A stretch of 64,000 bases of DNA from NCBI RefSeq assembly GCF_001677475.2, contig NZ_CP015229.1; one strand, given 5' to 3'. Positions 12,043 to 15,913 of the stretch are shown in pieces. The notes under the pieces were generated by a model that was not told where the DNA came from, ran no database searches, and was given only the letters and a program-made list of their open reading frames with translations. Made by a program: the position numbers and the translations under genes. The DNA comes from Escherichia coli. GTDB taxonomy: Bacteria > Pseudomonadota > Gammaproteobacteria > Enterobacterales > Enterobacteriaceae. Position 1 is the stretch's first letter; every line of letters begins with the position of its first letter.

Positions 12043-12501
12043 ATGACAATCACGGACCTGGTACTGATTCTTTTCATCGCCGCACTCCTGGCCTTCGCGA
12101 TCTACGATCAGTTCATCATGCCCCGCCGTAACGGCCCCACTCTGCTGGCAATTCCTTTGCTCCGGCGTGGTCGCATCGATAGCGTTATATTCGTCGGATT
12201 GATTGTCATTCTTATCTATAACAACGTCACGAATCATGGCGCGCTAATAACAACATGGTTATTAAGTGCACTGGCTCTGATGGGTTTTTATATATTCTGG
12301 ATCCGCGTTCCGAAGATCATCTTTAAACAAAAAGGTTTTTTCTTCGCCAATGTCTGGATTGAATATAGCCGAATCAAAGCGATGAACTTGTCGGAAGATG
12401 GCGTGTTGGTGATGCAATTAGAACAGCGTCGGCTGTTAATCCGCGTTCGAAATATCGACGATCTAGAAAAAATTTATAAGCTTCTCGTTTCAACTCAATA
12501 A
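12043..12501 (+). CDS. yobD: UPF0266 inner-membrane protein YobD
   Basis: 152-aa hydrophobic [27 protein letters not shown]. Confidence 0.8.
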
Positions 12502-12698
12502 GTTATGAATTTAGCCAAAGCTATGTTTAGTGTATTTTTAATAATCAGACATAGCTTAGGCTATATTACCTCTTCCCTTATTTGTTATTTATTTTAACGT
12601 TTCATTGATATATAAATCTAAATGAAAATCGTTATCAATAAAGCAATGAAATAATATATTCCAACAGTTGTTTATGAGACGACAATAACTCAGTCCGC

Positions 12699-12720
12699 CT
12701 GGCGCCGATTATTCTGGCCG
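12699..12720. repeat. Left terminal inverted repeat of the IS21-family element (ctggcgccgattattctggccg)
   Basis: Hand alignment: 18 of 22 positions match the reverse complement of 15035-15056. Confidence 0.5.
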
Positions 12721-12765
12721 GTTTTGTAACCTGAGTGTCATTTACATGATCCAACAGGAAATGGC

Positions 12766-14265
12766 GTGACGCTCAATACTTCTCAGGTCAGTTACTATAT
12801 GACTCAGCGTAAGAAAGGTATAACTCAGCATATCTCGGCCATGAAGGCTGGTATCTCAGTCCGTTCTGGTCGTCGGATCGAAAAAGGAGAGTGGGCAAAA
12901 AACAGTGTTCGGCACTGGCGCACACGCAAAGATCCTCTGGAAGCTGTGTGGGACAGCATGCTTGTTCCTCTGTTGAAAGAGAGGCCGGCTCTGACACCAA
13001 CAACTCTACTGGAGATGCTACAGGATAAATATCCCGGCCAGTACCCCAACAGCCTTCGAAGAACAATGCAACGGCGGGTTCGCGAATGGAAACTACAGTA
13101 TGGTACAGAGCAGGAGGTCATGTTCCGCCAGCAACATCAGCCCGGCCTGCGAGGCCTGTCGGACTTTACTGAACTGAAAGGTGTAGTTGTCACCATCGCC
13201 GGTAAGTTGTTGGCGCATAAGTTGTATCACTTCCGTCTGGAATGGAGCCACTGGAGCTGGATGCGGGTTGTTCTGGGTGGTGAGAGCTTCTCTGCTCTGG
13301 CTGAAGGCCTGCAGGAAGCCCTCGGACAACTGGGCGGAGTGCCGGTAGAACATAAAACGGACAGCCTGAGGGCAGCATGGAAACAACAGGGCGAAGATGG
13401 ACGCCGCGAGCTGACTGAGCGTTATGCTACTCTCTGTCAGCACTACGGAATGCAGGGCGTACACAATAATGCCGGTCGGGGCCACGAAAATGGCTCGGTT
13501 GAAAGTGCCCACGGACATCTGAAAAGGCGTATCTGTCAGGCGCTGATACTGCGGGGCAGTAACGACTTCAGCACCATAGAAGAATATCAGGCCTTCATCA
13601 CTCAGCAGGTTATGCGGCACAACCGTAACAATCAGGATCTGGTCAAGGAAGAACGTCTTCATCTGAAACCGCTGCCGCTTCGTCGCAGTGCTGACTATGA
13701 TGAGCTGACTGTGAGGGTTAGTCGCAGCAGTACCATCAATGTGAAGCACGTCGTCTACAGCGTACCTTCCCGGCTTGTAGGTCAACTGTTACGGGTCAGG
13801 TTATGGGACGATCGTCTGAGCTGTTACGTTGGCAGCAGCGAGGTCATGAGCTGCCCTCGCGTCAGACCAGAAAAAGGGAAGACGCGGGCCCGTCGTATCG
13901 ACTTCCGACATGTGATCGACAGTCTGGCAAAAAAGCCCGGTGCGTTCTGCCATGCAACGCTGAGAAATGACATCCTGCCGGACGATGAATGGCGGAGGCT
14001 GTGGCGTCGCTTATGTAATCATCTGGAGCCCGATATGGCAGGAAGGCTGATGGTACATGCCCTGAAACTGGCTGCAGGATACGACGATATCTCAGTCGTG
14101 GCAAAAGGTATGGAGCAGATGCTGAATACCCCGGGAAACGTGGATCTGCACCGGCTGATGCGCTTCCTGGGTATAAAAGAAAAGGCGTTGCCGGTAGTCA
14201 ATGTGATACAGCATAACCTGAGCAGTTATGAGCAACTACTGCGTGGCAAGGGAGGTTCGCAGTGA
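12766..14265 (+). CDS. istA: IS21-family transposase IstA
   Basis: 499-aa ORF from GTG at 12766 (alternative in-frame ATG at 12799); N-terminal HTH-like region, large catalytic domain; stop overlaps istB start. Confidence 0.8.
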   Translation: MTLNTSQVSYYMTQRKKGITQHISAMKAGISVRSGRRIEKGEWAKNSVRHWRTRKDPLEAVWDSMLVPLLKERPALTPTTLLEMLQDKYPGQYPNSLRRTMQRRVREWKLQYGTEQEVMFRQQHQPGLRGLSDFTELKGVVVTIAGKLLAHKLYHFRLEWSHWSWMRVVLGGESFSALAEGLQEALGQLGGVPVEHKTDSLRAAWKQQGEDGRRELTERYATLCQHYGMQGVHNNAGRGHENGSVESAHGHLKRRICQALILRGSNDFSTIEEYQAFITQQVMRHNRNNQDLVKEERLHLKPLPLRRSADYDELTVRVSRSSTINVKHVVYSVPSRLVGQLLRVRLWDDRLSCYVGSSEVMSCPRVRPEKGKTRARRIDFRHVIDSLAKKPGAFCHATLRNDILPDDEWRRLWRRLCNHLEPDMAGRLMVHALKLAAGYDDISVVAKGMEQMLNTPGNVDLHRLMRFLGIKEKALPVVNVIQHNLSSYEQLLRGKGGSQ

Positions 14266-15017
14266 GCAATATCCATCACCTTGAACATAGCCTGCGTAAA
14301 CTACGCCTGACACGAGTTGGAGCTGAATGGCACGCTCTGGAAAAACGAGCGCTGGCAGAAGGCTGGACACCATCGCGCTATCTTCTGACGCTATGCAATG
14401 AAGAACTCCTGTGGCGCGAGAGTGAAAAACTGCGTCGTTATAAAAAGGAGGCCCGGTTGCCAGTTGCCAAAACGCTGAGCGAATACGACTTCAGTCAGGT
14501 GCCGGAACTGAATGGAGCTCAGTTCCGGCAACTCTGTGAAACGACAGACTGGGTTGATGCAGGAGAAAACGTTCTGCTGTTCGGAGCCAGCGGGTTGGGG
14601 AAAAGCCATCTGGCGGCAGCGATCGTGGATGGCGTAGTAGGTCAGGGCTACCGGGCCCGGTTCTACAGCGCAGGAGAGCTGTTGCAGGAACTACGTAAAG
14701 CCAGAGCTCAGTTGAAACTGAATGAGCTGCTACTGAAACTGGATCGCTACCGGGTGATAGTGGTGGATGATCTTGGCTATGTCAAACGCGATAGTGCCGA
14801 AACGGGTGTGCTGTTCGAGTTAATAGCGCATCGCTATGAACGTGGGAGCCTGGTGATAACCAGTAACCATCCGTTCAGCATGTGGGGCAGCATCTTCGTG
14901 GATGAGACTATGGCGGTGGCTGCGGCAGACAGGCTGCTCCATCACGGATATATGTTCGAACTGAAAGGGGAAAGCTACAGGAAAAAGACAGCGAAGGCAG
15001 TAACAAGCGCGACTTGA
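14262..15017 (+). CDS. istB: IS21-family helper ATPase IstB
   Basis: 251-aa ORF with Walker A (LLFGASGLGKSHLAAAI) and Walker B-like (VIVVDDLGY) motifs; translationally coupled to istA. Confidence 0.85.
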   Translation: MSNIHHLEHSLRKLRLTRVGAEWHALEKRALAEGWTPSRYLLTLCNEELLWRESEKLRRYKKEARLPVAKTLSEYDFSQVPELNGAQFRQLCETTDWVDAGENVLLFGASGLGKSHLAAAIVDGVVGQGYRARFYSAGELLQELRKARAQLKLNELLLKLDRYRVIVVDDLGYVKRDSAETGVLFELIAHRYERGSLVITSNHPFSMWGSIFVDETMAVAAADRLLHHGYMFELKGESYRKKTAKAVTSAT

Positions 15018-15034
15018 TGTCGCCCTGAAGGGTG

Positions 15035-15056
15035 CGGCCAGTATAGTTGGCGCGAG
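15035..15056. repeat. Right terminal inverted repeat of the IS21-family element
   Basis: Reverse complement ctcgcgccaactatactggccg pairs with 12699-12720 (18/22). Confidence 0.5.
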
Positions 15057-15121
15057 TCGGCAAAACTAGTTGACGTCTAATAGTTGTTTTATATTCTCAA
15101 AATATGTTAAGGTTGCGCCCT

Positions 15122-15346
15122 CATTTGGGGAGTAGCCGATTTCCAGATTCCGGAAATGTACGTGTCAACATACTCGTTGCAAAACGTGGCACGTACGGAC
15201 TGAACACTTTCAGTCAGGCGAGACCATATGCACATCAATCGCTATGCCTGCATGAACGCGAAAACCCGTCGCGGCTTGTTGTTCATGTATGCATGTTTGC
15301 TGGGGGCGATGATGTGTTTTATGGATACCCCGGTCAGGACGTTGTC
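15122..15346 (+). promoter_or_regulatory. mntP 5' leader with predicted yybP-ykoY manganese riboswitch (extent approximate)
   Basis: Long untranslated leader before the mntP ATG beginning with ggggagtagcc near the expected transcript start; the E. coli mntP leader is known to hold an Mn riboswitch; structure not folded here. Confidence 0.5.
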
Positions 15347-15913
15347 ATGAATATCACTGCTACTGTTCTTCTTGCGTTTGGTATGTCGATGGATGCATTT
15401 GCTGCATCAATCGGTAAAGGTGCCACCCTCCATAAACCGAAATTTTCTGAAGCATTGCGAACCGGCCTTATTTTTGGTGCCGTCGAAACCCTGACACCGC
15501 TGATCGGCTGGGGAATGGGCATGTTAGCCAGCCGGTTTGTCCTTGAATGGAATCACTGGATTGCGTTTGTGCTGCTGATATTCCTCGGCGGGCGAATGAT
15601 TATTGAGGGTTTTCGTGGCGCAGATGATGAAGATGAAGAGCCGCGCCGTCGGCACGGTTTCTGGCTACTGGTAACCACCGCGATTGCCACCAGCCTGGAT
15701 GCCATGGCTGTGGGTGTTGGTCTTGCTTTCCTTCAGGTCAACATTATCGCGACCGCATTGGCCATTGGTTGTGCAACCTTGATTATGTCGACATTAGGGA
15801 TGATGGTTGGTCGCTTTATCGGCTCAATTATTGGGAAAAAAGCGGAAATTCTCGGCGGGCTAGTGCTGATCGGCATCGGCGTCCAGATCCTCTGGACGCA
15901 CTTCCACGGTTAA
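15347..15913 (+). CDS. mntP: Manganese efflux pump MntP
   Basis: 188-aa membrane protein [25 protein letters not shown]; ORF-track N-terminal extension (15104) rejected. Confidence 0.85.

What the first reader, a model, noticed from the sequence alone, without database searches (positions are those of the whole stretch)
12766..14265. istA start ambiguity and istA-istB translational coupling
The longest istA frame starts at GTG 12766, but an in-frame ATG at 12799 (MTQRKKGITQ...) is an equally plausible start. The istA stop overlaps the istB GTG start by 4 nt, consistent with coupled translation. IS21-family elements often make alternative N-terminal IstA forms, so the start choice matters for interpreting activity.
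Basis: seen in the sequence. Interest (0 to 1): 0.2.

Follow-up and report, generated by a model that had tools for sequence, protein, structure and literature searches.

The report
ISEc10 transposase start and gene overlap

Summary
GTG 12766 opens a 499-codon istA, ATG 12799 is in frame 11 codons later, and the istA stop overlaps the istB GTG in GTGA (14262-14265). The element is an intact ISEc10 (IS21 family, 12673-15082) with a target duplication, inserted between yobD and mntP.

The two starts are not equally plausible. GTG 12766 is the first start codon after an in-frame TAA and has an AGGA six bases upstream. It matches a start codon in all 65 non-redundant relatives. Residues between the two candidates (Q7, V8, Y11) are conserved, so they are translated. 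RefSeq annotates the same start.

ATG 12799 is conserved (62/65) and lies within two residues of the IS21 'cointegrase' start. In ISEc10 its Shine-Dalgarno context is about background (-3.2 kcal/mol, against -6.5 in IS21). A short isoform is possible but unshown.

The istA/istB juxtaposition with a strong istB Shine-Dalgarno is typical of the family. It fits coupling but does not prove it.

Beyond the finding, a covariation-supported mRNA hairpin (12732-12741 with 12766-12775) pairs the long-form start codon. Overall this is ordinary, known biology with one modest new detail.

The parts
12667..12672 (.). Left copy of the target-site duplication, GTTGTT. Neighbouring bases allow a reading of up to 8 bp (AGTTGTTT).
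   Evidence: The empty site in Nissle 1917 reads CCAACAGTTGTTTTATATTC. Other ISEc10 copies have 6-7 bp duplications: GGTCACC, GTTGAC, GGCACC.
12673..12720 (+). Left terminal inverted repeat of ISEc10; the element spans 12673-15082 (2410 bp).
   Evidence: The 48-nt arms are 71% complementary. Independent copies share these ends.
12727..12729 (+). In-frame TAA that closes the istA frame upstream. No ATG/GTG/TTG lies between it and 12766.
   Evidence: Translation of 12673-12810.
12732..12741 (+). 5' arm (UGAGUGUCAU) of a conserved mRNA hairpin that pairs with the istA start codon and codons 2-4.
   Evidence: It appears in the MFE and centroid fold. RNAalifold predicts the same 8-bp stem in 16 relatives, with 4 compensatory pairs. 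96.1% of cells are paired, against 29-59% for slid controls, and the covariation score is reached by 0/500 shuffles.
12756..12759 (+). Shine-Dalgarno AGGA for GTG 12766, with a 6-nt spacer. It lies in the loop of the hairpin.
   Evidence: Sequence. Duplex energy with the anti-SD is -4.3 kcal/mol.
12766..14265 (+). istA, the IS21-family DDE transposase (499 aa, GTG start). This is the principal, long-form reading.
   Evidence: NCBIfam NF033546 scores 226 bits against a cut-off of 160. RefSeq annotates the same start in other copies. A start codon sits at the homologous position in 65/65 relatives.
12766..12775 (+). 3' arm (GUGACGCUCA) of the hairpin, made of the start codon plus codons 2-4.
   Evidence: The predicted unpaired probability of GTG 12766 is 0.02.
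12785..12788 (+). Weak SD-like AGGT (from the Q7-V8 codons CAG GTC); its AGG core lies 11 nt before ATG 12799.
   Evidence: Sequence. The energy is -3.2 kcal/mol, against a mean of about -2.5 for other in-frame ATGs.
12799..12801 (+). In-frame internal ATG (Met12), a conserved residue at the N-terminal edge of HTH-1. It is a possible secondary start for a 488-aa short form.
   Evidence: The codon is ATG in 62/65 relatives. It aligns within 2 residues of the IS21 Met9 cointegrase start. Its predicted unpaired probability is 0.36.
14248..14256 (+). Strong Shine-Dalgarno AAGGGAGGT for istB, inside the 3' end of istA.
   Evidence: Sequence. The energy is -12.0 kcal/mol. Comparable SDs occur in relatives.
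14262..14265 (+). GTGA, where the istB start codon GTG overlaps the istA stop codon TGA.
   Evidence: The same junction is annotated in RefSeq copies.
14262..15017 (+). istB, the IS21-family AAA+ helper ATPase (251 aa).
   Evidence: Pfam PF01695 scores 209.5 bits. NCBIfam NF038214 scores 266.7 bits against a cut-off of 200.
15035..15082 (+). Right terminal inverted repeat. It contains an outward-facing -35-like TTGACG at 15070-15075.
   Evidence: IS21 is reported to carry a -35 in its right TIR and a -10 in its left TIR (PMC10122671).
15083..15088 (.). Right copy of the target-site duplication, GTTGTT.

Best explanation
The region is the istA-istB operon of an intact ISEc10 (IS21 family) inserted between yobD and mntP.

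istA is translated mainly from GTG 12766 into a 499-aa DDE transposase. That start looks deliberately weak: a GTG codon, a 4-nt SD, and a conserved mRNA hairpin (12732-12741 with 12766-12775) that pairs the start codon. This should keep transposase output low. The repressive effect of the hairpin is inferred.

istB is translated from GTG 14262, which overlaps the istA stop (GTGA) and follows a strong SD. Ribosomes finishing istA can therefore re-initiate, and free ribosomes can also load directly. Coupling is inferred.

Met12 (ATG 12799) is first of all a conserved residue at the start of the first helix-turn-helix. It may also give a minor short isoform, like the IS21 cointegrase, but ISEc10 lacks the good internal SD seen in IS21 and in about half of the related lineages.
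For: Identity of the element:
- 99.8% DNA identity to RefSeq-annotated ISEc10 copies.
- The IstA and IstB family models score above their cut-offs.
- Terminal repeats and a target duplication are present, and an empty site exists in other strains.
- ISEc10 is reported to transpose in CFT073 (PMC7482066).

Evidence for the GTG start:
- It is the first start codon after the in-frame TAA.
- AGGA lies 6 nt upstream.
- The homologous position is ATG (31), GTG (31) or TTG (3) in 65/65 non-redundant relatives of about 43-99% identity. Their median SD energy is -6.4 kcal/mol, against -2.4 for 351 other in-frame ATGs.
- Relatives at 68, 63, 59 and 54% identity start with GTG, TTG, GTG and ATG at that codon, each behind GGAG-type SDs.
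- Q7, V8 and Y11 are conserved.
- PGAP chooses the same start.

Evidence for the hairpin:
- It appears in the MFE and centroid folds.
- RNAalifold predicts the same 8-bp stem.
- 96.1% of cells are paired, 4 of 8 pairs show two-sided changes, and 0/500 shuffles reach the covariation score.
- U·G wobbles make the structure strand-specific, which points to RNA.
- In 66 relatives the UTR-to-start duplex averages -13.3 kcal/mol, against -9.6 and -10.35 for two control sets (P about 1e-10 and 1e-9).
- The start codon has a predicted unpaired probability of 0.02.
- IS21 itself folds its first ATG into a hairpin with z = -3.4.

Evidence at the junction:
- The istB start lies -11 to +4 nt from the istA stop in most relatives (46 of 52 classified junctions), with SDs of -7 to -13 kcal/mol.
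- IS21 has ...GTGATG... at its own junction.
Against: - No protein or ribosome-level data are available. All start assignments rest on sequence and comparison.
- ISEc10's SD for the GTG is only moderate (-4.3 kcal/mol), and the codon is predicted to be almost always paired. In absolute terms the long form may be poorly made, and the relative use of ATG 12799 cannot be judged from sequence.
- The hairpin alignment was anchored by me on a TG[AG] motif, because MAFFT had offset an identical 8-mer by one column. The sequences are also related to each other, so the statistics overstate independence.
- The strong, unstructured istB SD means the overlap need not imply obligatory coupling.
Confidence: 0.8

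Rival explanations
1. Both starts are used, as in IS21. GTG 12766 gives a full-length transposase. ATG 12799 gives a form 11 residues shorter, which lacks the N-terminal tail and has altered activity, like the IS21 cointegrase. The hairpin over the long-form start would set the ratio between the two.
For: - The IS21 cointegrase lacks the first 8 residues (PMC10122671).
- IS21 reads ATG CTG AGC AGA GAG GAC TTT TAC ATG, with GAGAGGA 8 nt before the second ATG.
- ISEc10 Met12 aligns with IS21 Met9 by hhalign, or two residues away by the NCBIfam model.
- The Met12 codon is ATG in 62/65 relatives.
- Codon -3 is biased towards SD-like triplets in relatives: Arg is AGG in 10/19 cases against 4.9% expected, Lys is AAG in 10/13, and Glu is GAG in 10/11. 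AGG is used in 5 of the 6 independent clusters that have Arg there.
- The internal ATG is predicted to be more accessible than the GTG (0.36 against 0.02).
Against: - In the ISEc10 clade codon -3 is AGT, not AGG. The only SD-like element is AGGT 11 nt upstream (-3.2 kcal/mol, against -6.5 in IS21 and a background of about -2.5).
- Met12 is replaced by Leu (CTG, CTC) or shifted in three lineages. That fits a structural hydrophobic residue of helix 1.
- The overall hhalign probability is only 52%.
- No product data exist for ISEc10.
Confidence: 0.25
2. ATG 12799 is the only real start, and the GTG-initiated extension is an artefact of calling the longest ORF.
For: - ATG is the commoner start codon.
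- The NCBIfam IS21 transposase model begins to align at residue 12.
- GTG 12766 is predicted to be base-paired.
Against: - Residues upstream of Met12 are conserved in sequence and length across relatives down to about 45% identity (Q in 62/65, V/I in 47/65, Y/F in 65/65).
- A start codon with a strong SD sits at -11 or -14 in 63 of the 65 relatives, and at -12 or -13 in the other two.
- The hairpin covaries with codons 2-4, which means selection acts on this exact initiation region.
- ATG 12799 has no adequate SD.
Confidence: 0.04
3. istB is translated independently from its own strong ribosome-binding site. On this view the 4-nt overlap is just compact gene packing and not functional coupling.
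For: - The SD AAGGGAGGT has ideal spacing and an energy of -12.0 kcal/mol.
- The junction region has no significant structure that would make the SD depend on upstream ribosomes (z = +0.99).
- Junction geometry varies among relatives, from a 14-nt overlap to a 1-nt gap.
Against: - The start stays within about 11 nt of the istA stop in most relatives (46 of 52 classified junctions) despite large sequence divergence. That proximity is what termination-reinitiation needs.
- The two mechanisms are not exclusive.
Confidence: 0.3

Closest known systems
ISEc10 (IS21 family), as annotated by NCBI PGAP in E. coli chromosomes and plasmids such as RM9088, pUM146 and OkiPb01695
   Same: The DNA is 98-99.8% identical over 12673-15082. 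The copies share the 1500-nt istA with a GTG start 93 nt inside the left end, the 756-nt istB that overlaps it by 4 nt, and the same terminal sequences TATGAGACG...CGTCTAATA.
   Different: The insertion site differs. The yobD-mntP intergenic region is not occupied in any of the 5,426 complete E. coli genomes searched (the best hits cover only the element itself). IstA also differs by five amino acids from the commonest cluster representative, P0001.
IS21 of plasmid R68/RP4, the prototype with transposase and cointegrase isoforms (Schmid et al. 1998, as cited in PMC10122671)
   Same: Both have the two-gene istA-istB operon with a stop/start overlap; IS21 reads GTGATG. Both have an in-frame Met at the N-terminal edge of HTH-1, preceded by Tyr (FYM against YYM). 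Both have a predicted hairpin over the first start codon, and both carry a -35-like box in the right end (PMC10122671).
   Different: - IstA is 499 aa against about 390, with a long extra C-terminal region (Pfam PF27155 Y4rL_C in relatives).
- Sequence similarity is only profile-level (hhalign E = 1.5e-4).
- IS21 starts with ATG, and its internal ATG has a good SD (GAGAGGA, -6.5 kcal/mol). ISEc10 starts with GTG, and its internal ATG has only AGGT (-3.2).
- The tail removed would be 11 residues rather than 8.
Translation-initiation sequestration in other insertion sequences, for example fold-back inhibition in IS10 and IS50 (from my knowledge of the IS literature, not checked here)
   Same: An element-encoded 5' segment pairs with the transposase initiation region and should reduce translation.
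   Different: In IS10 and IS50 the inhibitory pairing is specific to read-through transcripts that start outside the element. Here both arms lie well inside the element (60-103 nt from the left end). Transcripts from a left-end promoter would therefore also form the hairpin, so it would act as a constitutive attenuator. This is inferred.

Membership tests
IS21 family insertion sequence | IstA DDE transposase | tested here: met
   NCBIfam NF033546 transpos_IS21 scores 226.4 bits against a cut-off of 160. Pfam Mu-transpos_C_2 also matches.
IS21 family insertion sequence | IstB AAA+ helper ATPase encoded immediately downstream on the same strand | tested here: met
   PF01695 IstB_IS21 scores 209.5 bits and NF038214 scores 266.7 bits against a cut-off of 200. 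istB occupies 14262-15017 and overlaps istA by 4 nt.
IS21 family insertion sequence | Terminal inverted repeats and a short target-site duplication | tested here: met
   The 48-nt repeats lie at 12673-12720 and 15035-15082. The 6-bp (up to 8-bp) duplication is confirmed against an empty site.
IS21 family insertion sequence | Multiple repeated IstA-binding sites (L1/L2, R1/R2) inside the ends | tested here: inconclusive
   I saw only a loose resemblance by eye, between ACAATAACTCAGTCC and TTTGTAACCTGAGTGTC. The repeat finder did not report it.
ISEc10 (specific element) | Near-identity over the full length to copies named ISEc10 | tested here: met
   Identity is 99.8% over the whole element to the RM9088 and OkiPb01695 copies, which PGAP names 'IS21-like element ISEc10 family'. 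The ISfinder reference sequence itself was not available.
IS21-type dual IstA isoforms (transposase and cointegrase) | In-frame internal start codon a few codons into istA, at the edge of HTH-1 | tested here: met
   ATG 12799 is Met12. It aligns within 0-2 residues of IS21 Met9.
IS21-type dual IstA isoforms (transposase and cointegrase) | Functional ribosome-binding site before the internal start | tested here: inconclusive
   The only element is AGGT, whose AGG core lies 11 nt upstream. Its energy is -3.2 kcal/mol, against -6.5 for IS21 and about -2.5 for other in-frame ATGs.
IS21-type dual IstA isoforms (transposase and cointegrase) | Two IstA polypeptides with different activities | not testable with these tools
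   This needs protein analysis and transposition or cointegration assays.
Translationally coupled gene pair | Stop codon of the upstream gene overlaps or abuts the start codon of the downstream gene | tested here: met
   GTGA lies at 14262-14265. Proximity is conserved in relatives.
Translationally coupled gene pair | Downstream translation depends on upstream translation, for example because structure masks the RBS | tested here: not met
   I tested only the masking-structure route. The fold of 14200-14320 is no more stable than shuffles (z = +0.99), and the SD is strong (-12.0 kcal/mol). Functional dependence itself cannot be tested here.

The most novel reading that the evidence does not exclude
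A covariation-supported mRNA hairpin occludes the long-form istA start. Together with a conserved and more accessible internal ATG, it could form a translational device across a large subfamily of about 500-aa IstA proteins, and perhaps in IS21 itself. In many lineages the internal ATG is preceded by SD-like codons maintained against codon usage. The device would both throttle transposase synthesis and set the ratio of full-length to N-terminally truncated (cointegrase-like) IstA. ISEc10 would be a member in which the internal site has weakened.
Probability: 0.25. Interest if true: 0.45.

Novelty: already known. Interest (0 to 1): 0.22.

Why it matters
For annotation, the GTG start and the 4-nt overlap used by RefSeq are right and need no change.

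For IS biology, the start region of this IstA subfamily seems to be under RNA-level selection. There is a hairpin over the start codon, and SD-like codons precede a conserved internal Met. If confirmed, this would extend the IS21 transposase/cointegrase idea beyond the single element in which it was shown. It would also give a concrete handle on how these elements keep transposase low.

For the host strain, the copy is intact, and ISEc10 is reported to be mobile. It sits just upstream of the mntP leader with an outward -35-like box, so it could alter expression of the manganese exporter.

Tried and rejected
- A PDB sequence search with IstA alone and with a 27-sequence profile found nothing. 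I therefore could not map Met12 onto the solved IS5376 IstA structure.
- Rfam has no family in 12400-15500.
- The primary IS21 papers and the Berger & Haas review are not held. A full-text search for a reported istA start hairpin found nothing relevant.
- I tested whether the Gln7 codon is kept as CAG to form an SD. It is not: 64.5% observed against 59.4% expected, P = 0.22.
- I first thought the insertion might disrupt mntS. The empty site shows only yobD and mntP annotated there, so I dropped that idea.
- MAFFT on the untrimmed 5' regions offset the ISEc10 group by one column relative to an identical 8-mer. I re-anchored the alignment on the TG[AG] motif and state this as a caveat.
- The reading 'frame truncated upstream of 12766' is rejected. 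An in-frame TAA lies 12 codons upstream. Relatives that are three residues longer use a start at -14 that has no counterpart in ISEc10.

Full report
**What is there.** The window around 12.7-15.1 kb carries two same-strand ORFs.
- The first runs from GTG 12766 to TGA 14263-14265 (499 codons).
- The second runs from GTG 14262 to 15017 (251 codons).
- They share the four bases GTGA.
- ATG 12799 is in frame with the first ORF, 11 codons in.

The first product matches the NCBIfam IS21 transposase model (226 bits, cut-off 160). The second matches IstB (Pfam PF01695, 209.5 bits; NF038214, 266.7 bits).

**Identity and limits of the element.**
- A megablast search against 5,426 complete E. coli genomes finds copies that are 98-99.8% identical and that PGAP names 'IS21-like element ISEc10 family'.
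- All of these matches stop at window positions 12672/12673 and 15082/15083.
- The repeat finder gives 48-nt imperfect terminal inverted repeats at 12673-12720 and 15035-15082.
- E. coli Nissle 1917 has the uninterrupted site CCAACAGTTGTTTTATATTC between yobD and mntP. The insertion therefore duplicated GTTGTT, with adjacent bases making up to 8 bp formally possible.
- Other ISEc10 copies are flanked by GGTCACC, GTTGAC and GGCACC.
- Only one copy is in the window.
- ISEc10 is reported as mobile in CFT073, with new insertions near lpp and cited activation of ampC (PMC7482066).

This is an intact copy of a catalogued element.

**Which start codon.** Several independent lines favour GTG 12766.
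- The frame is closed by TAA at 12727-12729, and no ATG, GTG or TTG lies between that stop and 12766.
- AGGA (12756-12759) sits six bases upstream of the GTG. ATG 12799 has only AGGT (12785-12788), whose AGG core lies 11 nt upstream.
- I fetched 80 loci encoding relatives from the genome collection, plus four intermediate relatives.
- In 65 non-redundant N-terminal regions there is always a start codon 11 codons (15 cases) or 14 codons (48 cases) before the Met12 equivalent; the other two are at -12 and -13. The codons are ATG 31, GTG 31 and TTG 3.
- Their SD energies have a median of -6.4 kcal/mol, against -2.4 for 351 other in-frame ATG codons of the same genes.
- The relatives at 68, 63, 59 and 54% identity begin with GTG, TTG, GTG and ATG at exactly the homologous codon, behind GGGAGAGG, GGAGG, GGAGA and AAGGAG.
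- The residues between the two candidate starts are conserved as protein: Gln at -5 in 62/65, Val/Ile at -4 in 47/65, and Tyr/Phe at -1 in 65/65. They are therefore translated.
- RefSeq uses the same GTG in three independent copies.

'Equally plausible' is not a fair description. GTG 12766 is the principal start.

**Is ATG 12799 a second start?** This idea comes from IS21. Its IstA is also made as a 'cointegrase' that lacks the first eight residues and handles IS21 tandems preferentially (PMC10122671 citing Schmid et al. 1998).
- I retrieved IS21 from a plasmid. It reads ATG CTG AGC AGA GAG GAC TTT TAC ATG, with GAGAGGA eight bases before the second ATG.
- A profile comparison aligns ISEc10 Tyr11-Met12 with IS21 Tyr8-Met9 (overall probability only 52%).
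- The NCBIfam model places ISEc10 Met12 and IS21 Lys11 at the same model position. The two Met residues are therefore within two positions of each other, at the N-terminal edge of the first helix-turn-helix.
- The Met12 codon is ATG in 62 of 65 relatives. Three lineages have CTG, CTC or a shifted Met, as expected if the residue is primarily a structural hydrophobic one.
- At the nucleotide level many relatives do show a signal. Codon -3 is Arg-AGG in 10 of 19 cases (4.9% expected from the rest of the same genes), Lys-AAG in 10 of 13, and Glu-GAG in 10 of 11. AGG is used in five of the six independent 70%-identity clusters that have Arg there. This places a purine-rich RRG about six bases before the internal ATG and argues that internal initiation is selected in perhaps half of the lineages.
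- ISEc10 and its close kin have AGT at that codon. Their internal SD energy is -3.2 kcal/mol, against -6.5 in IS21 and about -2.5 for background ATGs.

A short ISEc10 isoform is possible but not supported beyond positional analogy. I put it at about one in four.

**A conserved hairpin over the long-form start.** This was not part of the finding.
- Folding 12700-12830 gives a stem in which UGAGUGUCAU (12732-12741) pairs with GUGACGCUCA (12766-12775), that is, the start codon and codons 2-4. The SD lies in the loop.
- In the 16 relatives of the '-11 class' the two arms change together. Examples are UGAGUGCC/GGCGCUCA, UGACCGC/GCGGUCA, UGGCCGC/GCGGCCA and GACCGCC/GGCGGUC.
- On an alignment anchored at the conserved TG[AG] motif, RNAalifold predicts exactly this 8-bp stem, with four pairs showing two-sided changes.
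- The pair count gives 96.1% of cells paired, against 29-59% when the partner is slid by 1-3 columns. No shuffle out of 500 reaches the covariation score.
- Frequent U·G pairs make the structure strand-specific, which points to RNA and not to a DNA palindrome.
- Across 66 relatives of both classes, the leader (-55 to -10) pairs with the start window (-2 to +16) at a mean of -13.3 kcal/mol. The controls are -9.6 for other coding windows (Wilcoxon P = 1.5e-10) and -10.35 for other 45-nt partners (P = 1.3e-9).
- In the window the predicted probability that GTG 12766 is unpaired is 0.02, against 0.36 for ATG 12799.
- IS21's own leader folds its first ATG and both SDs into a hairpin with z = -3.4.
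- Caveats: I chose the anchor, the sequences are related, and no experiment backs the inferred repression.

The most economical reading is a built-in attenuator of transposase translation. This is a strategy known from other insertion sequences (my knowledge of IS10 and IS50, not checked here). I found no report of it for IS21-family elements in the searchable library, and the primary IS21 papers are not held.

**The istA-istB junction.**
- AAGGGAGGT (14248-14256) precedes GTG 14262 with ideal spacing, and its anti-SD energy is -12.0 kcal/mol.
- In relatives the istB start lies from 11 nt before to 4 nt after the first base of the istA stop in most cases (46 of 52 classified junctions). The forms are ATGA/GTGA in 13 cases, ATGnnTGA-type in 20, and TGATG, TGAnATG and longer overlaps in the rest. 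SDs are typically -7 to -13 kcal/mol.
- IS21 has ...TTGTGATGCAT... at its junction.
- The local RNA is not more structured than shuffles (z = +0.99).

The arrangement therefore permits termination-reinitiation and is conserved, but istB could also be translated independently. The sequence alone cannot separate the two.

**Comparison with what is known, and verdict.** Element, gene pair, start codon and overlap are exactly as already annotated for ISEc10, so the finding itself is ordinary. It is too generous to ATG 12799, and it over-generalises the IS21 two-isoform case. The added value of this analysis is comparative evidence that fixes the start. It also yields two modest leads: the covarying start hairpin, and the SD-like codon bias before the conserved internal Met in related elements.

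Noticed in passing
window 12667-15097: ISEc10 is inserted in the yobD-mntP intergenic region, a few tens of bases upstream of the mntP leader. None of the 5,426 complete E. coli genomes searched carries it at this site. The right end has an outward -35-like TTGACG (15070-15075), which lies 16 nt before TATTCT (15092-15097) in the flanking DNA. This could form a hybrid promoter reading into mntP. ISEc10 insertions are cited as activating ampC (PMC7482066).
   Followed up: partly
L084 2139-2227 (IS21 on plasmid pB39_X): The IS21 istA leader is predicted to fold into a long hairpin (-38.5 kcal/mol, z = -3.4, matched by 0/200 shuffles). The hairpin pairs the first ATG, its SD and the internal GAGAGGA, and leaves the second (cointegrase) ATG just outside.
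   Followed up: partly
relatives L013, L024, L039-L043, L080, L081 and others; codon 3 before the Met12 equivalent: The rare Arg codon AGG (and AAG, GAG) is strongly over-used exactly three codons before the conserved internal Met of these IstA genes. This creates an SD-like RRG about 6 nt upstream. The cyanobacterial cluster uses CGN or AGA instead and has no such signal.
   Followed up: yes
L003 (pUM146 copy), the codon equivalent to window 12772-12774: This plasmid copy has CTC changed to TTC (Leu3Phe) in the 3' arm of the start hairpin. The change weakens the predicted leader-start duplex from -15.6 to -10.3 kcal/mol. It is a natural variant that could be used to test the hairpin.
   Followed up: no
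L004 (Martelella alba scaffold NZ_SZPQ01000083.1): An ISEc10-like element with 94% IstA identity sits on a 6.6-kb scaffold of an alphaproteobacterial assembly. All other close copies are in Enterobacterales. This suggests contamination or recent transfer.
   Followed up: no
window 15110-15350: Rfam's gathering-threshold scan of 12400-15500 reported no family, even though this stretch is the mntP leader. From my own knowledge, that leader is described as carrying a manganese (yybP-ykoY) riboswitch in E. coli. I did not rerun the scan at a permissive threshold.
   Followed up: no
window 12683-12740 and 15000-15060: The 5' arm of the start hairpin overlaps a conserved motif, TGTAA(C/T)CTGAG. This motif loosely resembles a sequence nearer the left tip (ACAATAACTCAG) and one near the right end (TTGTTACTGCC on the other strand). 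It may be the inner IstA-binding repeat (L2/R2). If so, the same bases would serve both DNA binding and the RNA stem. I saw this only by eye.
   Followed up: no
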